Below are positions 3,900-59,940 of a DNA stretch of 64,000 nucleotides, piece after piece. Below the pieces are notes generated by a model. That model was not told the origin of the DNA. It made no database searches and saw nothing but the letters and a program-made list of their open reading frames with translations. The translations under genes were made by a program, and so were the position numbers. Position 1 is the stretch's first letter. Each line of letters begins with the position of its first letter. The stretch is from Escherichia coli (lineage in GTDB: Bacteria; Pseudomonadota; Gammaproteobacteria; Enterobacterales; Enterobacteriaceae), in assembly GCF_050920415.1 (NCBI RefSeq), contig NZ_CP169309.1. One strand, 5' to 3'.

Positions 3900-4130
3900 C
3901 ATGGCGGATGCAGCCTACGGTTCGGCACAGACCTGTAGGCATGATAAGACGCGTCAGCGTCGCATCAGGCATTGTGCGTCGACTGCCGGATGCGGTGTGA
4001 CGCCTTATCCGGCTTACGGTTCGGCACAGACTTGTAGGCATGATAAGACGCGTCAGCGTCGCATCAGGCATTGTGCGTCGACTGCCGGATGCGGTGTGAA
4101 CGCCTTATCCGGCTTACGAAGGGCAGACTA
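3900..4130. repeat. Tandem REP/BIME array, two ~96 bp units
   Basis: Near-identical units at about 3925-4020 and 4021-4115, each carrying GCCGGATGCGGTGTGA(A)CGCCTTATCCGGC. Confidence 0.8.
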
Positions 4131-46353: not shown

Positions 46354-46574
46354 GCTGCACCTCCGAGATGCTTCATGTTTTTTCCGGAGCGAAAGGCTAT
46401 AAGCGGCATACTGACGCGGTAATTACGGCCCAGCGGTTCACAAATCACCTTCTGACATTCACGGTCAACCAGGCTAACACGTAGAACATGCCCTGCAGGC
46501 GTGGTGTACCACTGACCCGGTCGAGGACAACGGAAAGTCTGATTGGTAAACCGTTTGAAAATATTCCGGATCAT
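46350..46574 (-). CDS. Hypothetical protein (74 aa)
   Basis: ORF only. Confidence 0.3.
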   Translation of the reverse strand: MIRNIFKRFTNQTFRCPRPGQWYTTPAGHVLRVSLVDRECQKVICEPLGRNYRVSMPLIAFRSGKNMKHLGGAA

Positions 46575-47722
46575 TTGCGCCCCCTTACCTCGGAAGAGTT
46601 CAGCGACGAATGAATAAGACGGGCAAGAAATGCCGCATCGTTAATTCGGTCATACAGACTTACAGCCAGCGGTGATTCAGCTTTTTCCAGCATGGGATAA
46701 AGCTGCTGCAACCAGACCTGATGAATTGATGAAATGTAGGAATAGAGTACGCTGGCGTTATGTGCAACGTCGCTCGGTACAGCGGGCTTTGAAAGCTGTT
46801 TCTCCATCTGGTTAAAGGCATTGATGTATGCCTCTTTGAACTGGGCAGCACGTTTACCCGTGAAACCCATAGCAAGAAACGCAAAACCGTCGCGGGTTAT
46901 TTGATAGCAAGGTAGTTTGCGGCCTGTGCAATCGGTGTAATCACTCACCGAAAAATTGCGGGCAGTGAATGATGCGGAGCATTCAAGCGTGCGGATCTTT
47001 TTCAGTACATCGTCATGACGTTTGGAGAAGAAGTTGGCAACAGCCAGGGATGAAGTAACAGCCTGACCATCAACGATGGCAATTTCAGGTTGAGTGAGGG
47101 TTGGGATCGTAGCCATGATGGCAGCCTCTTTGGTGATTTTTAATAACTCACCACCAAGGCTTTCCACGACCTTATTGGTGGTGAGACGTACAGGGGTGGA
47201 AATACCGGTCACCAAAGAACCCGGCCCAACCGAAGTTGGCCCTGCACGCCCCACCATAATTTGGGCGTAATGCTGCTCATGACACAAAAAAACCGCAAGA
47301 GCGCGGTTGTGCGCTTTGGTGAATTCCGGGTTTCCACGCCCGGCACCCGCTTTATAAGGTGCCTGAACAGTGTAACGTCCCGGAATGGCAGAATCAATGT
47401 GCTGGTGGTCCTTCACACTCAACAAAATCACGCCTGAATTTCCACAAAGGGCTAAAGCACTCATGCGGGTAGTCTTTGCGAAGATAGATAACGCGCTGTG
47501 TTTCTGGCTCCCAACGAATAACATGAACATAAAGTCCTCTTCCGTCACGAAACCAGCGGTTAAGTTCCTGCACAACTCGCCCCCCACAGTCAGGTAAAGT
47601 TCTCTGTGGTTACTTACAGCCAGGAGATTTGGTAATCTGCATTCATGCCGTAACAACAGGTGTTCAGCGACGCTGACCACCAGCTGTTGCGACAAATGGT
47701 TATTTGCCGTTAAACTGTTCAT
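46571..47722 (-). CDS. Rha-family phage regulatory protein with an uninterrupted ~200 aa upstream in-frame extension
   Basis: Rha-like domain starts at MATIPTLTQPEIAIVDGQAVTSSLAVANFF (about 47116); the 5' 202 codons have no stop and no recognised family. Confidence 0.5.
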   Translation of the reverse strand: MNSLTANNHLSQQLVVSVAEHLLLRHECRLPNLLAVSNHRELYLTVGGELCRNLTAGFVTEEDFMFMLFVGSQKHSALSIFAKTTRMSALALCGNSGVILLSVKDHQHIDSAIPGRYTVQAPYKAGAGRGNPEFTKAHNRALAVFLCHEQHYAQIMVGRAGPTSVGPGSLVTGISTPVRLTTNKVVESLGGELLKITKEAAIMATIPTLTQPEIAIVDGQAVTSSLAVANFFSKRHDDVLKKIRTLECSASFTARNFSVSDYTDCTGRKLPCYQITRDGFAFLAMGFTGKRAAQFKEAYINAFNQMEKQLSKPAVPSDVAHNASVLYSYISSIHQVWLQQLYPMLEKAESPLAVSLYDRINDAAFLARLIHSSLNSSEVRGRK

Positions 47723-48282
47723 GCGTTAGTTTCTCCACAGACACAAAACGCCACGACGCCCGGAGCTGCACACTCGCGGGCGTCACTCTTTTCTGGAGCG
47801 CAAAAGATTTTGTAGACCAGTGCTGCATGCTCCTGGAGCTTCGAAATTGACAGATACAACTCATCATTAATTGCTGTCTGCTCGTGTGGCTCCACTACCC
47901 CATCTTCGATTGCCGAACGAATCTGCTTTGAGTAACTCCCGATCTGTTCGATGACTTCCAGCAGGCGCTGGTTTATATCGGCGTTCTCTACTTCCTCAAT
48001 TTCAGGAAGCGATACAAACACCCCACCAGCAGACTGTGCGACAGCATCCGCAATGTAGTGAGTGCCAGCCGCGCGCTGTAAAATCATTGCCCATCCCAGC
48101 GGGAAAATCTGATCGCCATCTGCACGAAGGCGGTTGAATAAAGCGTTCTCTGTTACATCCAGCCACTCAGCAGCTTCAGCGTAACCCCCCGGCAACGCCG
48201 CGATAGTTTTTCTGACAGCTTTCACGTACCACTCAGGCTGTTTTTCTACTTTCCAGTGATGCTTACCCACGGTTAGCCTCAT
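47719..48282 (-). CDS. Putative CII-like early regulatory protein
   Basis: 187 aa immediately downstream of cro; assignment by position and weak recollection of the family. Confidence 0.35.
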   Translation of the reverse strand: MRLTVGKHHWKVEKQPEWYVKAVRKTIAALPGGYAEAAEWLDVTENALFNRLRADGDQIFPLGWAMILQRAAGTHYIADAVAQSAGGVFVSLPEIEEVENADINQRLLEVIEQIGSYSKQIRSAIEDGVVEPHEQTAINDELYLSISKLQEHAALVYKIFCAPEKSDARECAAPGVVAFCVCGETNA

Positions 48283-48313
48283 CGTTCTGTGGTTAAAAAT
48301 TAAAGGTGTTCTG

Positions 48314-48514
48314 TTAATCTTTCGGATAGATATCCGGTCTTAAGTCAGATTTCGTAATTGCACCTGACGTGCATTGCTCAAGTTTTTTAGCCAGCACAAA
48401 ACTGGCTTTTTTATAACCATTGAAAACCAGCCGTAAGTAGCCTGGTGTTGAGCCAACTTTTCCGGCCAACTCGCCCTGCTGTTCTTTGGTTAAAGAGTCC
48501 CAATACGCTTTCAT
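48314..48514 (-). CDS. cro: Cro-like repressor (66 aa)
   Basis: MKAYWDSLTKEQQGELAGKVGSTPGYLRLVFNGYKKASFVLAKKLEQCTSGAITKSDLRPDIY; divergent from cI. Confidence 0.7.
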   Translation of the reverse strand: MKAYWDSLTKEQQGELAGKVGSTPGYLRLVFNGYKKASFVLAKKLEQCTSGAITKSDLRPDIYPKD

Positions 48515-48604
48515 ACAATATGTACCTCTTATATACATATTACATGATTGAAATGAACCTTCAAGATACTTGTACCCTATCGGTACAAAGGTTTTAATTT
48601 CGTT
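48515..48604. promoter_or_regulatory. Immunity-region operator/promoter interval (OR, pR/pRM)
   Basis: Divergent cI/cro spacer containing the palindrome TTGTACCCTATCGGTACAA (48570-48588). Confidence 0.6.
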
Positions 48605-49279
48605 ATGAAAACAGTCCATGACATCCGGCGGTCTAACGCCAGAAAACTGAGAGATGGTGTTGGCGGGAATTCTTCCTTTGCCACCATGATTGATCGCGAA
48701 CCAACCCAGACCAGCAGGTTTATGGGAGATGGTGCTACTAAAAATATCGGTGACAGCATGGCACGGCACATCGAAAAATGTTTCGACCTGCCTGTCGGAT
48801 GGCTTGATCAAGAACACCAGACAACGAACATCACAAAAAAACCTGATGTTTCAATCACTAATAAACAAATAACGTTAGTCCCTGTCATATCATGGGTACA
48901 GGCCGGAGCATGGAAAGAAGTTGGCTATTCTGAGGTTGATTTGAGCACAACAGAAACATATCCCTGCCCTGTACCCTGTGGCGAAATGACTTATATATTG
49001 AGGGTGATTGGTGATTCAATGATTGATGAGTACCGTCCGGGGGACATGATTTTTGTCGATCCAGAAGTACCAGCCTGCCACGGCGATGACGTTATTGCAT
49101 TGATGCACGATACAGGTGAAACCACCTTCAAAAGGTTGATAGAAGACGGGACACAGCGTTATCTCAAAGCATTAAACCCCAACTGGCCTGAGCCTTACAT
49201 TAAGATAAACGGTAATTGCTCTATCATTGGTACAGTTATTTTCTCAGGAAAACCAAGAAGATACAAAATTAAAGCCTGA
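48605..49279 (+). CDS. cI: CI-type repressor with N-terminal HTH and C-terminal S24 (LexA-like) autopeptidase domain
   Basis: 224 aa; C-terminal ...YILRVIGDSMIDEYRPGDMIFVDPEV...KRLIEDG... typical of S24 peptidases. Confidence 0.8.
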   Translation: MKTVHDIRRSNARKLRDGVGGNSSFATMIDREPTQTSRFMGDGATKNIGDSMARHIEKCFDLPVGWLDQEHQTTNITKKPDVSITNKQITLVPVISWVQAGAWKEVGYSEVDLSTTETYPCPVPCGEMTYILRVIGDSMIDEYRPGDMIFVDPEVPACHGDDVIALMHDTGETTFKRLIEDGTQRYLKALNPNWPEPYIKINGNCSIIGTVIFSGKPRRYKIKA

Positions 49280-49293
49280 TCAATGTCTATGAA

Positions 49294-49314
49294 CCTGCTT
49301 CGGCAGGTTTTTTT
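49294..49314 (+). terminator. Intrinsic terminator after cI
   Basis: CCTGCTTCGGCAGG followed by T7. Confidence 0.7.
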
Positions 49315-49474
49315 ATACTTGACAATGTACCATTAAGATACATAATGTACCTGCATAAGATATCGAACAGGCAGGACGCCCACGAAGTAGCCGTCCGGGG
49401 CATACGAAGACCGGAATGGTTCGTAAATAAAAAAGCGCCCAAGTGGACGCTTCACTTTTGAACTGGATTTATAA

Positions 49475-49717
49475 TCAATTATTTTCTTCATAAATGTTTT
49501 GTAATGTATTTATGAGATTTGGTATTTCTTTTATGGGAAAAGAATATATTGGACTTTCGATAATTTTATCAGATTCAAATGGTGGTTGTTTGCAGGACAG
49601 TTGAACTATAACTGAATTATGATCTTTAACTGGCACACAGTACCAACCACATACATCAAAAACAGGAGTATTTTGATTATCCATTATGTCCTCGACAACT
49701 AAAAACACTGCGTACAA
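49475..49717 (-). CDS. Small hypothetical protein in an AT-rich segment next to cI
   Basis: ORF MDNQNTPVFDVCGWYCVPVKDHNSVIVQLSCKQPPF...; convergent with cI. Confidence 0.35.
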   Translation of the reverse strand: MYAVFLVVEDIMDNQNTPVFDVCGWYCVPVKDHNSVIVQLSCKQPPFESDKIIESPIYSFPIKEIPNLINTLQNIYEENN

Positions 49718-50347
49718 ACCTCAAAAGCAGGGAGTTATTTATAAAATTTCATAAAGAATAATTACTGATAGCGACAATTCATTGTTCTTGAATTTTGAAA
49801 AATAGCAAGACAAAACAATGTAAACTTATTTAAGAAAAGTTCTTATTATGTAAACAAAACAACCAATTCGTTATATAGGAAAAACAAATAGTACGCAAGA
49901 AAATATTCAACAGGGGTATTACATTCAACCATAAGAGTAATCGTCTCTTTGGTAACTAATACCGAACATTTTATTGTAACACGTCGTATGGCACATGCGT
50001 CGTTAGCGGTCTGGGGACGTTAAAGGGGACAATCCACTCCTTGCTCGGGCAAACAAACCAGGTAGCCGGAATGTGCAAGTCAATGATGATGCTGATAAGA
50101 CGCCTAACCAGCGTGGCGATCCGGTTTGACGCCTGGGAAGAGACCAGGGTGCAACGATGAGGGCATTTATGGAGCCGCGACAAAGTGTGGTGCCATAACT
50201 GGCTAAGTGCTCTCAGCGTTGTGGTAATCCGCGAAATGGCGCGGCGGTAAGTATGGCGGGGTTACTCTTTCCCCGTTGAGGACACCGGATTGTCAGGTTG
50301 ACCATACGCCTGAGTGACAACCCCACCACAACAGCCACTGCTTTGGC

Positions 50348-50382
50348 GGTACCAGCTTGTACCCTTGCTTCCGGCTGGTACC
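50348..50382. promoter_or_regulatory. Candidate left operator (OL)
   Basis: GGTACCAGCTTGTACCC...GGTACC shares TTGTACC / GGTAC half-sites with the OR palindrome. Confidence 0.4.
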
Positions 50383-50391
50383 GTCCTTTTT

Positions 50392-50480
50392 ACAAAACAG
50401 AGAAGAGCATCACCGGACGACGGGCTCATAACCCAATCCATCCGGGCGGCTGCCACCGCAGGTGTTCTTCTCTGTTTTGT
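50392..50480 (+). other. Long perfect inverted repeat (15 bp arms, ~59 nt spacer) in the early-left leader
   Basis: ACAAAACAGAGAAGA at 50392-50406 pairs with TCTTCTCTGTTTTGT at 50466-50480; adjacent CACC/GGTG extends the stem. Confidence 0.5.
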
Positions 50481-50528
50481 GGAGAAACCAACCGGCCTTG
50501 CAGGGTCGATATGATGAGGAGCAGCAAA

Positions 50529-50891
50529 ATGGCTAGCGAACGCAGTACTGATGTGCAGGCATTTATCGGGGAGCTGGACGGCGGCGTATTTGAAACCAAA
50601 ATCGGCGCAGTTCTCAGTGAAGTCGCTTCCGGTGTGATGAACACGAAAACCAAAGGTAAGGTCTCACTCAACCTGGAAATCGAACCATTTGATGAGAACC
50701 GTGTGAAAATCAAACACAAACTCTCATATGTTCGCCCGACTAACCGCGGGAAAATTTCCGAAGAAGACACCACCGAAACGCCGATGTATGTCAATCGCGG
50801 TGGTCGCCTGACTATTCTGCAGGAAGACCAGGGACAATTACTGACTCTTGCCGGTGAACCTGACGGAAAACTCCGCGCAGCAGGTCATTAA
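50529..50891 (+). CDS. YfdP-like prophage protein (120 aa)
   Basis: MASERSTDVQAFIGELDGGVFETKIG...; AGGAG RBS; order matches CPS-53 yfdP-yfdQ-yfdR. Confidence 0.55.
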   Translation: MASERSTDVQAFIGELDGGVFETKIGAVLSEVASGVMNTKTKGKVSLNLEIEPFDENRVKIKHKLSYVRPTNRGKISEEDTTETPMYVNRGGRLTILQEDQGQLLTLAGEPDGKLRAAGH

Positions 50892-55012: not shown

Positions 55013-56269
55013 TCAAAGTGTGCTAGGAGATTTGGTTATGTTCAGGTGATACAAACCGTCAGTTTGACAATTAACAATCGATTCAACCCTCTTCCACCAT
55101 GCCAGGTAAGCTTTACGCTGTTCTTCTAGATAATCACTCTTATCATAAACTTGCCATACCCCTGGCAGCTTATGACCAAGCATAATTTCTGCGATATGAG
55201 GCGCAGTAAGATCAGAAAAATTTGTTCGAGCTGTACGTCTCAAGTCATGAAGAGACCAATGAGGGAATTGATATCCTAAACACCGCCATGCGTACTGCAT
55301 TAAATTGTAAGGCAGCGACTGCAATGATGTCCGACCAACGGGTTCCCTGCTTCCTTCCTTAGTAAAAAGCATATCGGAACCATTGTTCATAGAGATAGCG
55401 TACTTTATAAGCTCTTCAACCGGTTCAATAATGGGCCGCTTTAGCGGTTCGCCTGTTATCTCCCCAGTCTTATGTCGTTCTGGTGGTACAGTCCATACTT
55501 TATTAATGAAATCAAAATCGTCCACCCGGGCGGTAATTAGCTCTGAACTACGGCAACCAAAATGCAGCAATAGTTTAATGAAGGCCCGGTATTTAGGAAC
55601 CATTCGAGAACCATCGATCGCAGCATAAAGGATTTTAATTTCATCATGTGTCAGAAACCGTTTCTTCTGACCTTTACGGATATCCATATCTTTACCCGTG
55701 ATATCCGACAGCGGGCGAGTTTCAATGAGCTTTCTCTTATACGCCCAGACATGGGCCTGCTTTGCGTTAATTAGCAATCGGTCTGCTATTGCTGGAGTCT
55801 TAGTGCTAAGAGGCTCCAGGACTTCTAACCAATCATGCAATGTAGCTGCATCGTGAGGGATATTCCCGATTTTAGAGAACAGGTGCAGCTCAAACGAGCG
55901 AAGTATCTGTTCAGAACCTTTTTTATTTTTTACACAATATGCTTCATACCAAGCACGGATCACAGACTCTACCGTCATGGCTTCAGTAGCTTTTCGTTTT
56001 TCAGCCTGCTTGACCAATCGTGGATTACGGTTTGACTCGAGTTCACCACGAAGACGGATAACTTCTTCTCTGGCCTCTTTTAATCCAGTTGCCGGGTAAG
56101 TTCCGATATCAAGACGCTCACCTTTCCCTGCCCATTGATAACGATATTGGAACACTACGCGACCTTTCGGTGATACTCTGACAGACAGACCATCACGATC
56201 GGATTTAACCAAAACCTTATCACGTTCCTTTCCAACGACTGAACGCAACCACGCATCAGACAGCGCCAT
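55013..56269 (-). CDS. int: Tyrosine site-specific integrase
   Basis: 418 aa; C-terminal catalytic region with ...HDLRRT... and ...MLGH...; adjacent to the att core. Confidence 0.9.
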   Translation of the reverse strand: MALSDAWLRSVVGKERDKVLVKSDRDGLSVRVSPKGRVVFQYRYQWAGKGERLDIGTYPATGLKEAREEVIRLRGELESNRNPRLVKQAEKRKATEAMTVESVIRAWYEAYCVKNKKGSEQILRSFELHLFSKIGNIPHDAATLHDWLEVLEPLSTKTPAIADRLLINAKQAHVWAYKRKLIETRPLSDITGKDMDIRKGQKKRFLTHDEIKILYAAIDGSRMVPKYRAFIKLLLHFGCRSSELITARVDDFDFINKVWTVPPERHKTGEITGEPLKRPIIEPVEELIKYAISMNNGSDMLFTKEGSREPVGRTSLQSLPYNLMQYAWRCLGYQFPHWSLHDLRRTARTNFSDLTAPHIAEIMLGHKLPGVWQVYDKSDYLEEQRKAYLAWWKRVESIVNCQTDGLYHLNITKSPSTL

Positions 56270-59319: not shown

Positions 59320-59500
<181 letters not shown>

Positions 59501-59617: not shown

Positions 59618-59704
59618 GCGAAGGTGGCGGAATTGGTAGACGCGCTAGCTTCAGGTGTTAGTGTCCTTACGGACGTGGGGGTTCAAGTCCCCCCCCTCGC
59701 ACCA
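59618..59704 (+). tRNA. leuQ: tRNA-Leu (anticodon CAG), 87 nt
   Basis: GCGAAGGTGGCGGAATTGGTAGACGCGCTAGCTTCAGGTGTTAGTGTCCTTACGGACGTGGGGGTTCAAGTCCCCCCCCTCGCACCA; which of leuQ/P/V each copy is depends on orientation. Confidence 0.9.
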
Positions 59705-59732
59705 AAAACCACGTTGATATTGCTCGCACTGG

Positions 59733-59819
59733 GCGAAGGTGGCGGAATTGGTAGACGCGCTAGCTTCAGGTGTTAGTGTTCTTACGGACGTGGGGGTTCA
59801 AGTCCCCCCCCTCGCACCA
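59733..59819 (+). tRNA. leuP: tRNA-Leu (anticodon CAG), 87 nt, one variable-arm substitution
   Basis: Same sequence with GTGTTC instead of GTGTCC. Confidence 0.9.
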
Positions 59820-59853
59820 AACGAGGCGATATCAAAAAAAGTAAGATGACTGT

Positions 59854-59940
59854 GCGAAGGTGGCGGAATTGGTAGACGCGCTAGCTTCAGGTGTTAGTGT
59901 CCTTACGGACGTGGGGGTTCAAGTCCCCCCCCTCGCACCA
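59854..59940 (+). tRNA. leuV: tRNA-Leu (anticodon CAG), 87 nt
   Basis: Third tandem copy, identical to the first. Confidence 0.9.

What the first reader, a model, noticed from the sequence alone, without database searches (positions are those of the whole stretch)
48515..50382. Shared operator half-site TTGTACC at OR and a putative OL
The cI/cro spacer contains the palindrome TTGTACCCTATCGGTACAA. About 1.8 kb away, just upstream of the early-left leader, the sequence GGTACCAGCTTGTACCC...GGTACC repeats the same half-sites. This supports placing pL/OL at about 50350-50390 and defines the repressor specificity.
Basis: seen in the sequence. Interest (0 to 1): 0.4.

Follow-up and report, generated by a model that had tools for sequence, protein, structure and literature searches.

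The report
Prophage operator and a terminator hairpin
The palindrome between the prophage's repressor and cro genes is a genuine operator, but the "second operator" 1.8 kb away is the terminator hairpin of a DicF-like RNA in the early-left leader, and the real left operator and promoter lie directly after the repressor gene.

Summary
The window holds an E. coli prophage with SfV/e14-type immunity: a cI/YmfK-like repressor at 48605-49279 (+) and a cro/YmfT-like gene at 48514-48314 (-).

**Confirmed.** TTGTACCCTATCGGTACAA (48570-48588) is real and is the only perfect match in 64 kb. It is one of three 19-bp dyads of form WTGTAYC-N5-GRTACAW in the spacer.

**Not supported.** The 50348-50382 sequence is not an operator:
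- It has no dyad and no promoter.
- Its single TTGTACC is a chance-level match.
- It sits in the loop of a 13-bp GC-rich hairpin (50345-50385) followed by CUUUUU.
- The hairpin is conserved in phages with unrelated repressors, usually as TTGTACA.
- Its position and flanks are homologous to the terminator hairpin of the Qin prophage sRNA DicF.

**Real pL/OL.** It lies at 49319-49363, just after the cI terminator. TTGACA-N16-CATAAT is overlapped by ATGTACCATTAAGATACAT, the best operator match in the whole window, and by a weaker adjacent site.

**In passing.** The hairpin belongs to a large, covarying, unannotated leader RNA found in about 46% of complete E. coli genomes. One of its hairpin tips matches the initiator-tRNA anticodon arm.

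The finding itself is ordinary lambdoid regulation.

The parts
48314..48514 (-). cro-like gene (YmfT/YdaS-type HTH, 66 aa)
   Evidence: ORF. Weak Pfam YdaS_toxin and HTH_3 matches. Annotated cro in SfV and ymfT in E. coli.
48520..48538 (.). OR operator dyad ATGTACC-TCTTA-TATACAT, overlapping the -10/+1 side of the candidate PR
   Evidence: Repeat family D1. Matrix score 17.7. Among relatives only its spacer and one half-site base vary. Lies inside SfV's annotated 'putative operator region'.
48553..48571 (.). OR operator dyad ATGAACC-TTCAA-GATACTT, overlapping the candidate PR -35
   Evidence: Repeat family D1. Score 15.7. Invariant among relatives.
48570..48588 (.).
   Evidence: Only zero-mismatch match in the window. 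Score 18.3. Only the spacer varies among relatives.
48537..48564 (-). Candidate PR for cro: TTGAAG (48564-48559), N16, TAATAT (48542-48537)
   Evidence: Best - strand hexamer pair in the spacer, 8 of 12. Inferred, not shown. PRM could not be placed with confidence.
48605..49279 (+). cI-like repressor (224 aa, LexA/S24 autocleavage domain), 99.6% identical to SfV CI; YmfK family
   Evidence: Pfam Peptidase_S24, 1.3e-26. Identity to SfV CI. RefSeq names it ymfK, LexA family.
49291..49310 (+). Intrinsic terminator of cI
   Evidence: Terminator scan: 8-bp stem followed by TTTTTTTA. Annotated as terminator in SfV and Ayreon.
49319..49347 (+). pL: TTGACA (49319-49324), N16, CATAAT (49341-49346)
   Evidence: Best promoter match in 48200-50700, 11 of 12. 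The equivalent stretch is annotated 'promoter' in phage Ayreon.
49325..49343 (.). OL operator ATGTACC-ATTAA-GATACAT, lying between the -35 and -10 of pL
   Evidence: Top-scoring 19-mer of the whole window (19.4) with a matrix trained on OR only; 0 of 100 random windows exceed 16.0. Half-sites conserved and spacer variable in relatives.
49345..49363 (.). Weaker second OL site ATGTACC-TGCAT-AAGATAT over the pL -10/+1
   Evidence: Score 8.4, rank 22, not significant on its own. The left half is conserved and the right half variable in relatives.
49360..49426 (+). 'Module A': conserved structured RNA at the 5' end of the pL transcript
   Evidence: Found directly downstream of at least 9 different promoter/operator cassettes. 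Covarying closing helix and stem-loop. Present in 45 phage records, unannotated. No Rfam hit.
49427..49967 (-). Inserted AT-rich moron: 80-aa ORF 49717-49475 (-) with its own terminator 49453-49432 (-)
   Evidence: Absent from Ayreon, where pL abuts the leader. ORF, terminator, no Pfam family.
49968..50528 (+). GC-rich structured leader of the early-left operon (yfdP, yfdQ and downstream genes)
   Evidence: Conserved block relative to Ayreon and cdtI. Fold z-score -5.65 for 50335-50535. Covariation.
50218..50332 (+). Domain closed by the helix GUUGUGGU (50218-50225) / ACCACAAC (50325-50332), 90% identical to the sequence just upstream of dicF in K-12 Qin
   Evidence: The motif pair is conserved in nearly all relatives. 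Alignment to Qin gives 106 of 118 identical.
50345..50391 (+). P1: 13-bp GC-rich stem (50345-50357 / 50373-50385), 15-nt loop holding TTGTACC, then CUUUUU (50386-50391).
   Evidence: MFE fold. All 28 diverse relatives have a hairpin of -12 to -32 kcal/mol ending 1-2 nt before at least 5 U, with at least 8 different stem sequences. Aligns with the DicF 3' hairpin.
50387..50485 (+). P2: long irregular stem (50387-50411 / 50461-50485) enclosing P2a (50413-50445) and P2b (50446-50459)
   Evidence: Inverted repeat I1. 97.8% of cells paired against 45-55% when partners are slid; 49 compensatory cells against 12.9 in shuffles.
50421..50434 (+). Tip of P2a, CGGGCUCAUAACCC, identical to 14 nt of the anticodon arm of E. 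coli initiator tRNA-fMet
   Evidence: The tRNA sequence was confirmed at 100% as tRNA-Met, median 4 copies per genome. The 13-mer is present in 61 of 68 family members found through an unrelated 3' motif.
50493..50531 (+). P3 hairpin (50493-50508), Shine-Dalgarno GAGGAG (50516-50521) and the yfdP start codon (50529)
   Evidence: Fold. P3 covaries, GC to CG. ORF and RefSeq name yfdP.

Best explanation
This is the immunity switch and early-left leader of an SfV/e14-type temperate prophage.

**OR (shown by sequence, binding inferred).** Three 19-bp dyads of form WTGTAYC-N5-GRTACAW (48520, 48553, 48570) lie between the divergent cro and cI genes. They are the sites where the CI/YmfK-like repressor and Cro would bind to control PR and PRM.

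**OL/pL (shown by sequence, function inferred).** The left operator and promoter sit immediately after the cI terminator at 49319-49363. A near-consensus promoter has one strong dyad between its hexamers and a weaker one over its -10/+1. Repressor binding would therefore shut off early-left transcription.

**Path of pL transcripts (inferred).** They begin with a conserved structured element (49360-49426). They then cross an inserted antisense moron and enter a roughly 560-nt structured leader.

The sequence at 50345-50391 is hairpin P1 of that leader. It has a GC-rich 13-bp stem plus a U-run, and it is homologous to the Rho-independent terminator hairpin of the Qin prophage sRNA DicF. It acts at the RNA level on the + strand.

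**Most likely role of P1 (inferred by analogy with DicF).**
- It acts as an intrinsic terminator or attenuator. It stops part of the transcription arriving from upstream, including cI read-through in the lysogen.
- It makes the 3' end of a leader-derived RNA.
- Read-through polymerases form the long P2 duplex (a plausible RNase III substrate) and then express yfdP, yfdQ and the downstream genes.

The TTGTACC heptamer is a variable loop sequence with no link to the repressor.
For: **Gene identities**
- cI carries Peptidase_S24; cro carries a weak HTH; the downstream gene is CII/CP76.
- The repressor is 99.6% identical to SfV CI.

**OR**
- The perfect palindrome is unique in the window.
- The three-site family was found independently by the repeat finder.
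- It coincides with SfV's annotated operator region.
- Among relatives, 1 of 40 half-site columns vary against 5 of 15 spacer columns.

**OL/pL**
- Best promoter in the region, 11 of 12.
- Annotated 'promoter' in Ayreon.
- An OR-trained matrix ranks 49325-49343 first in 64 kb, and no random window comes near.
- SfV and Ayreon keep the half-sites while changing the spacers.
- The conserved element 49360-49426 sits just downstream of at least 9 different pL/operator cassettes in other phages. This fixes the transcription start here.

**P1**
- Stable fold, z = -5.65.
- 28 of 28 diverse homologs keep a hairpin next to a U-run, with at least 8 different stem sequences and hypervariable loops.
- Many G-U pairs fit only the + strand.
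- Conserved where the repressor is unrelated and independent of immunity type.
- Flanks are 90% identical to the Qin dicF locus, and the hairpin aligns with the DicF 3' hairpin.
- Relatives give sub-threshold DicF model hits: L123 at 29.6 bits, E = 3.5e-4, and SfV at 15.7 bits.
- The 53-nt DicF 3' end is made by Rho-independent termination, and the 72-nt form by RNase III (PMC5069750, PMC9438474).
Against: - No binding or transcript-end data exist for this phage, so operator occupancy and termination at 50391 are inferred.
- The 15-nt loop of P1 is larger than in textbook terminators, and the consensus terminator scan (loop 3-8) did not list it.
- The invariant U-run can also pair with the conserved GGAGA at 50481-50485 (helix 1, 100% paired). 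It may therefore be conserved for structure as well as, or instead of, termination.
- The second OL site is weak and not significant alone.
- PRM was not located convincingly.
- The Rfam DicF model does not hit the window's own copy even at E up to 10.
- The DicF 5' seed is deleted here.
Confidence: 0.85

Rival explanations
1. One reading: 50350-50390 is OL/pL. The repressor binds TTGTACC/GGTACC half-sites there and represses an early-left promoter, possibly looping to OR 1.8 kb away.
For: One exact TTGTACC, and a 10-mer CTTGTACCCT identical to the OR palindrome's left half. The site lies upstream of the first early-left gene. The distance is of the order of lambda's OL-OR separation (my own knowledge).
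Against: - There is no dyad: the score is -3.2, and the best nearby 19-mer ranks 162.
- There is no promoter-like site.
- The heptamer and 10-mer matches are at chance level.
- The sequence is conserved next to unrelated repressors, and most close relatives, including ones with the same cI, read TTGTACA.
- A far better pL/OL exists at 49319-49363.
Confidence: 0.03
2. P1 is not a working terminator. It is only a structural helix of a larger functional leader RNA, and the U-run is kept to pair with GGAGA at the base of P2.
For: - The U-run/GGAGA helix is 100% paired, with U-A to U-G changes.
- P1 lies inside a multi-domain RNA with long-range helices.
- Its loop is large.
- Three such hairpin-plus-U-run units occur in tandem in some relatives. 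That would be very polar if all of them were efficient terminators.
Against: - The stem-plus-U-run geometry (1-2 nt gap, at least 5 U) is kept in 28 of 28 relatives despite wholesale stem replacement.
- The homologous DicF hairpin is an experimentally shown Rho-independent terminator (PMC5069750).
- A related unit ends the STnc100 sRNA family.
- The two roles are not mutually exclusive.
Confidence: 0.1
3. The element encodes a functional DicF-like trans-acting sRNA that inhibits host cell division by pairing with ftsZ mRNA through its loop or 3' region.
For: Homology of position, flanks and hairpin with dicF. In DicF the 3' region pairs with the ftsZ ribosome binding site (PMC5069750).
Against: - The DicF 5' seed (UUUCUGGUGACG) is absent from the window copy.
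- Predicted duplex energy with the ftsZ leader (-28.6 kcal/mol) is weaker than the mean for shuffled sequences (-33.2).
- The loop is hypervariable across relatives.
- There is no Rfam DicF hit.
Confidence: 0.05

Closest known systems
Lambdoid immunity region (OR/OL operators of lambda, P22, HK022); specifically the SfV / e14 (YmfK-YmfT) immunity type
   Same: - Divergent cro and cI genes with three tandem dyad operators in the spacer.
- A second operator cluster overlapping pL.
- An S24 (LexA-like) autocleavable repressor.
- The spacer is almost identical to SfV's annotated 'putative operator region'.
   Different: - Sites are 19-bp dyads (7-N5-7) with half-site WTGTAYC.
- Two OR sites overlap by 2 bp.
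- OL has one strong and one weak site rather than three.
- cI and the early-left operon are co-directional, so pL follows directly after the cI terminator.
- No N gene follows pL (PMC3851460).
- Pfam finds no HTH in the repressor's N-terminal domain.
DicF sRNA of the Qin prophage dicBF operon (Rfam RF00039)
   Same: - Same genomic logic: a repressor gene, then a co-directional repressor-controlled early operon that contains the element.
- About 115 nt upstream are 90% identical.
- UUUGGCGGUAYCAGYUU...CCGYCCUUUUU aligns with the DicF 3' hairpin and U-run.
- DicF's 3' end is made by Rho-independent termination, with RNase III as an alternative.
   Different: - The 5' single-stranded DicF seed is deleted.
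- The loop is longer and different.
- There is no ftsZ complementarity.
- The Rfam model does not score the window copy.
- It is followed by the P2 module and yfdP instead of dicB.
STnc100 sRNA family (Rfam RF02076), of which the window carries a full copy at 37260-37458 (-)
   Same: The SfV-type version of the leader unit shares the hairpin CACCGGGAGGCACCCGGCACCA, and a terminal hairpin plus U-run, with the 3' two-thirds of STnc100 (28.8 bits, E = 7e-5).
   Different: The score is below the family threshold of 47 bits. The window's own leader has a different P0 hairpin and gives no STnc100 hit at that place.
HK022 put RNA (cis-acting antiterminator of an N-less lambdoid phage), compared with module A at 49360-49426
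   Same: About 65 nt, structured, and located immediately downstream of pL in phages that lack N.
   Different: - No detectable sequence similarity to HK022 putL or putR.
- Only one copy in the window, with none downstream of pR.
- Antitermination activity is untested.

Membership tests
   TTGTACC-CTTGC-TTCCGGC scores -3.2. The best 19-mer in 50330-50400 scores 4.4, rank 162.
   No promoter-like site on either strand near 50300-50420.
   Conserved in mEp460 and Stx2a_1447, which have an unrelated repressor DNA-binding domain and different operators. TTGTACC is found in 9 of 21 SfV-type loci and 20 of 40 others.
Lambdoid repressor operator (applied to 48520, 48553, 48570 and 49325) | Repeated dyads overlapping early promoters next to the repressor gene, with half-sites conserved and spacers free to vary | tested here: met
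   SfV and Ayreon annotations.
Lambdoid repressor operator (applied to 48520, 48553, 48570 and 49325) | Specific binding by the cognate repressor and Cro | not testable with these tools
   Needs EMSA or footprinting. I found no published operator mapping for SfV CI or YmfK.
Intrinsic (Rho-independent) terminator (P1, 50345-50391) | GC-rich hairpin immediately followed by a U-run on the transcribed strand | tested here: met
   13-bp stem at -22 kcal/mol, a 1-nt gap, then UUUUU. The same geometry holds in 28 of 28 relatives. The - strand has no U-run.
Intrinsic (Rho-independent) terminator (P1, 50345-50391) | Short loop, typically 3-8 nt | tested here: not met
   The loop is 15 nt, and 13-45 nt in relatives. 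For this reason the consensus scan missed it.
Intrinsic (Rho-independent) terminator (P1, 50345-50391) | Transcripts end in the U-run | not testable with these tools
   Shown only for the homologous DicF hairpin (PMC5069750).
DicF sRNA (Rfam RF00039) | Covariance-model score at or above the gathering threshold (48 bits) | tested here: not met
   The window gives no hit at E up to 10. SfV scores 15.7 bits and L123 scores 29.6 bits.
DicF sRNA (Rfam RF00039) | Location inside the repressor-controlled early operon of a lambdoid prophage, with homologous flanks | tested here: met
   Same gene order as dicC / dicA / ydfABC-dicF-dicB. 106 of 118 identical upstream.
DicF sRNA (Rfam RF00039) | 5' single-stranded seed and 3' region complementary to ftsZ mRNA | tested here: not met
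   The seed is deleted. The duplex with the ftsZ leader is no better than shuffles.
HK022-type put antiterminator RNA (module A, 49360-49426) | About 70-nt structured RNA just downstream of pL in an N-less phage | tested here: met
HK022-type put antiterminator RNA (module A, 49360-49426) | Sequence or structure homology to putL/putR, and a second copy downstream of pR | tested here: not met
   No blastn-short match beyond 9-mers. Single copy in the window.

The most novel reading that the evidence does not exclude
It would have three kinds of part:
- a put-like element at the very 5' end of the pL transcript (49360-49426), which makes RNA polymerase read through;
- one or more DicF/STnc100-type terminator units;
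- a long duplex module whose invariant tip copies the anticodon stem-loop of initiator tRNA-fMet (50421-50434).

Sister phages carry near-complete tRNA-like inserts in the same stems. The tRNA mimic could act as a decoy or sensor for anticodon-loop nucleases, as an RNase P/RNase III processing signal, or as a translational control element. In many relatives the loop CUCAU is complementary to the AUGAG at the downstream start codon.
Probability: 0.3. Interest if true: 0.65.

Novelty: already known. Interest (0 to 1): 0.25.

Why it matters
For annotation of this prophage, the correction matters in three ways. It moves pL/OL about 1 kb, to 49319-49363. It gives a usable operator consensus (WTGTAYC-N5-GRTACAW) for the very common SfV/e14 (YmfK) immunity type. 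It also prevents a terminator hairpin from being read as a repressor site.

Beyond that, the finding is ordinary lambdoid regulation. What could matter more is the by-product. A covarying, unannotated leader RNA occurs in about 46% of complete E. coli genomes. It links DicF, STnc100 and tRNA-like modules into one family of terminator-containing units. A conserved element at the pL transcript start could explain how N-less SfV-like phages read through those terminators.

Tried and rejected
- **Operator at the second site.** Rejected by the dyad matrix, the promoter scan, chance estimates, cross-immunity conservation and the 2x2 table of loop state against immunity type.
- **Third OL site at 49289-49307** (ATGAACC in the cI terminator). 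Score -2.95, rejected.
- **Operator-like 19-mer inside the moron ORF** (49638-49656, score 11.0). Within the range of random windows (mean maximum 13.0), so treated as chance.
- **Rfam.** No family covers P1/P2 or module A in the window.
- **ARAGORN.** No tRNA in any leader.
- **Paralogs of P1, P2 or module A elsewhere in the window**, for example on the pR side. None found.
- **HK022 putL/putR similarity to module A or the leader.** None beyond 9-mers.
- **DicF-like targeting of ftsZ.** The duplex is no better than shuffles.
- **Folding of 49348-49470 alone.** Not more stable than shuffles (z = -0.37). The case for module A rests on comparative covariation instead.
- **Literature.** No experimental operator mapping was found for SfV CI or YmfK. 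The SfV genome paper and Faubladier & Bouche 1994 are not held.
- **PRM.** Not located. The only candidates are 7-8 of 12 matches.
Full report
**Setting.** The region is the immunity module of an E. coli prophage.
- A cI-like repressor lies at 48605-49279 (+). It has 224 aa, carries Peptidase_S24 (1.3e-26) and is 99.6% identical to phage SfV CI.
- A cro-like gene lies at 48514-48314 (-).
- A CII/CP76-like gene lies at 48282-47719 (-), followed by an Rha antirepressor.
- RefSeq names the two regulators ymfK and ymfT, the e14 family.
- To the right of cI lie yfdP (50529-50891), yfdQ/DUF2303 and further early-left genes. An excisionase-like ORF and an integrase lie at 53.6-56.3 kb.

**The observation.** The palindrome TTGTACCCTATCGGTACAA is at 48570-48588. 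It is the only perfect match to TTGTACC-N5-GGTACAA in the window. The second sequence is also present: GGTACC at 50348-50353, TTGTACC at 50357-50363 and GGTACC at 50377-50382.

The sharing between the two is not above chance.
- TTGTACC occurs 5 times against 5.6 expected.
- The shared 10-mer CTTGTACCCT is one of 14 exact 10-mer matches between the 90-bp spacer and the rest of the window, against about 8 expected.
- 35% of random windows have such a match within 2.5 kb.

**What OR looks like.** The spacer holds three related 19-mers:

| Position | Left half | Spacer | Right half |
|---|---|---|---|
| 48520-48538 | ATGTACC | TCTTA | TATACAT |
| 48553-48571 | ATGAACC | TTCAA | GATACTT |
| 48570-48588 | TTGTACC | CTATC | GGTACAA |

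- The repeat finder grouped the first two with a fourth copy at 49322-49343.
- The GenBank record of SfV annotates a 'putative operator region' that maps exactly to 48520-48588.
- Among distinct variants of this spacer in related loci, 1 of 40 half-site columns vary, against 5 of 15 spacer columns and 5 of 56 other columns. This is the pattern expected when the central bases are not contacted.
- The best candidate for PR is TTGAAG-N16-TAATAT on the - strand (48564-48537). It is overlapped by the first two sites.
- I could not place PRM with confidence.

**Where OL and pL really are.** Directly after the cI terminator (49291-49310) lies the best promoter match of the region, TTGACA-N16-CATAAT at 49319-49346, with 11 of 12 matches. 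The same stretch is annotated 'promoter' in phage Ayreon.

I trained a half-site matrix on the three OR sites only and scanned the window.
- 49325-49343 (ATGTACC-ATTAA-GATACAT) is the top 19-mer of all 64 kb, with score 19.4.
- The highest score in 100 random windows was 16.0.
- The adjacent 49345-49363 (ATGTACC-TGCAT-AAGATAT) is weak (8.4), but its left half is conserved.

SfV and Ayreon, which have essentially the same repressor, support this. Their sequences at the same place are ATGTACC-CATGA-GATACAT / ATGTACC-CAAGA-GAAACAA and ATGTACC-CTTGA-GATACAT / ATGTATC-TAAAA-GAAACAT. Half-sites are kept and spacers change.

There is also independent positional support from the element at 49360-49426.
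- Its core is CGAACAGGCAGGACGCCCACGAAGUAGCC, followed by a covarying stem-loop and a closing helix.
- It is found immediately downstream of at least nine different promoter/operator cassettes in other phages.
- It shows covariation.
- It therefore marks the start of pL transcripts.

**What the second site is.**
- The two GGTACC copies are the arms of one inverted repeat.
- As RNA on the + strand, 50345-50385 forms a 13-bp GC-rich stem with a 15-nt loop that contains TTGTACC. It is followed after one base by UUUUU.
- The stretch 50335-50535 folds at -89 kcal/mol, z = -5.65.
- The hairpin is retained in mEp460 and Stx2a_1447. Their repressor shares only the protease domain with this one, and their operators are of a different type (TTGCGCAA-like). 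In them the loop reads TTGTACA.
- ST64B has a different-sequence hairpin at the same place, followed by the same U-run.

A scan of viral contigs for a downstream core motif gave more than 100 loci. I analysed 28 diverse representatives.
- Every one has a hairpin of -12 to -32 kcal/mol ending 1-2 nt before at least five U.
- There are at least eight different stem sequences and loops of 13-45 nt.
- TTGTACC versus TTGTACA in the loop is unrelated to immunity type: 9 of 21 SfV-type loci against 20 of 40 others.

The operator matrix gives -3.2 for the 19-mer at 50357, and 4.4 (rank 162) for the best 19-mer nearby. No promoter-like site exists there. The operator reading is therefore not supported.

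**Homology with DicF.** A relative (L123) gave a sub-threshold hit to the Rfam DicF model exactly on this hairpin, at 29.6 bits with E = 3.5e-4. SfV gave 15.7 bits. The window copy gave none.

The K-12 Qin prophage has the same layout: dicC (-), dicA (+), then ydfA-ydfB-ydfC-dicF-dicB on the + strand.
- Window 50218-50335 is 90% identical (106 of 118) to the Qin sequence just upstream of dicF.
- UUUGGCGGUACCAGCUU...CCGUCCUUUUU aligns with the DicF 3' hairpin UUUGGCGGUAUCAGUUU...CCGCCCUUUUU.
- The 5' DicF seed (UUAUCAAUUUUCUGGUGACG) is missing from the window.

For DicF, the 3' end of the 53-nt form is made by Rho-independent termination at this hairpin. A 72-nt form is made by RNase III cleavage of read-through RNA (PMC5069750 and PMC9438474). 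The SfV-type version of the unit also resembles the 3' two-thirds of the STnc100 sRNA family (28.8 bits). The window carries a full STnc100 copy at 37260-37458. I found no better-than-random complementarity to the ftsZ leader. I therefore do not propose a DicF-like division-inhibitor function for this copy.

**How it most likely works.**
- Shown by sequence and comparison: the dyads and their positions on PR and pL; the hairpin-plus-U-run and its structural conservation; the + strand polarity, because of the many G-U pairs.
- Inferred:
  - CI binds OR and OL to silence PR and pL.
  - On induction, pL transcripts start at about 49355 and carry the conserved 5' element.
  - They cross the inserted antisense moron (49427-49967, absent from Ayreon) and enter the leader.
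  - P1 terminates a fraction of transcription. It also insulates the early-left genes from cI and moron read-through, since cI and the early-left operon are co-directional.
  - Read-through RNA forms the roughly 25-bp P2 duplex, a plausible RNase III substrate by analogy with DicF.

SfV-type phages are reported to lack N, cII and cIII homologs (PMC3851460). No + strand ORF follows pL here. This makes a cis-acting, put-like role for 49360-49426 attractive. However, it has no detectable similarity to HK022 putL/putR and no second copy in the window.

**The wider leader.** Downstream of P1, the alignment supports P2 (50387-50411 / 50461-50485), P2a (50413-50445) and P3 (50493-50508).
- 97.8% of cells are paired, against 45-55% when partners are slid.
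- 49 compensatory cells are seen, against 12.9 in shuffles (0 of 500 shuffles reach the observed value).

The tip of P2a, CGGGCUCAUAACCC (50421-50434), is identical to 14 nt of the anticodon arm of E. coli initiator tRNA. I recalled the tRNA sequence and confirmed it at 100% as tRNA-Met, with a median of four copies per genome.

To avoid circularity I re-collected the family through an unrelated 3' motif.
- 61 of 68 members keep GGGCUCAUAACCC.
- Three have GGGUUCAUAACCC.
- A small divergent group has a different loop.

In other phages the same CACAAC...GUUGUG long-stem modules are repeated and enclose tRNA-like pieces. One of these scores 28.5 bits against the tRNA model, whose threshold is 29. 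ARAGORN calls none of them.

P1-P2 is present at 80% coverage or more in 2,480 of 5,426 complete E. coli genomes, with no RNA annotation.

**Verdict.** The OR operator is confirmed and was already annotated as putative in SfV. The proposed OL is rejected and replaced by 49319-49363. The 'second site' is a DicF-type terminator hairpin of a conserved leader RNA. As a finding it is ordinary and scores low. The leader RNA noticed in passing deserves separate study.

Noticed in passing
window 49360-49426 (+): A conserved structured RNA sits at the very start of the pL transcript. Its core is CGAACAGGCAGGACGCCCACGAAGUAGCC, followed by a covarying stem-loop and a closing helix. It occurs directly downstream of at least 9 different promoter/operator cassettes in other phages. 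It is present in 45 phage records from Escherichia, Salmonella, Shigella, Klebsiella, Yersinia, Pantoea and Pectobacterium. It is unannotated and absent from Rfam. It may be a put-like antiterminator for N-less phages.
   Followed up: partly
window 50413-50445 (+), tip at 50421-50434: The hairpin tip CGGGCUCAUAACCC is identical to 14 nt of the anticodon stem-loop of initiator tRNA-fMet (three G-C pairs plus the CUCAUAA loop). It is kept in 61 of 68 family members that were found through an independent motif. In many relatives the downstream start codon context is AUGAG, which is complementary to CUCAU.
   Followed up: partly
window 49968-50528 (+); relatives L123 4897-5021, L096, L022, L029: The early-left leader is a mosaic of repeated long-stem modules of form CACAAC-AGNNAAGAGCA...UGCUCUUNNC-GUUGUG. 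In other phages these modules enclose tRNA-like inserts with T-arm GGUUCGAUUCC and D-arm GUAGCUCAAUUGGUUAGAGC. One insert scores 28.5 bits against the Rfam tRNA model (threshold 29) with a 57-nt insertion. Mosaic joints flank P1 at 50324, 50344 and 50381.
   Followed up: partly
window 47174-47362 (-): A C4 antisense RNA (83.6 bits) and an isrK-like RNA (67 bits) lie just upstream of the Rha antirepressor coding region. This resembles a P1/P7 immI or Gifsy-1 IsrK-type control module on the pR operon. The 383-aa ORF 46571-47722 probably fuses this non-coding stretch to the real antirepressor, whose Rha domain starts near 47131.
   Followed up: partly
window 49427-49967: An AT-rich insertion relative to phage Ayreon. 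It carries an 80-aa ORF on the - strand (49717-49475, no Pfam family) with its own terminator (49453-49432, -). This is a moron that pL transcription must cross in antisense.
   Followed up: partly
window 37260-37458 (-) and 38290-38543 (-): A full-length STnc100 sRNA (148.7 bits) lies next to phage tRNA-Arg(UCU) and tRNA-Met(CAU) genes. Its 3' part shares the CACCGGGAGGCACCCGGCACCA hairpin and a terminator unit with SfV-type early-left leaders.
   Followed up: partly
window 50298-50528 (+): The yfdP reading frame stays open upstream to a TTG at 50298, giving a 197-aa ORF. It runs through the structured leader. The upstream part is Cys/Arg-rich and is probably not coding, so gene callers could over-extend yfdP.
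   Followed up: no
window 48605-48880 (+): The N-terminal, presumed DNA-binding part of the repressor (residues 1-92) matches no Pfam HTH family at E up to 0.01. Only the C-terminal S24 domain is recognised.
   Followed up: no
window 59618-59940 (+), 3938-4114 (-), 59396-59478 (-): Three tandem tRNA-Leu(CAG) genes and naRNA4/REP-type elements lie outside the prophage. The integrase at 55013-56269 (-) marks the nearby prophage end.
   Followed up: no
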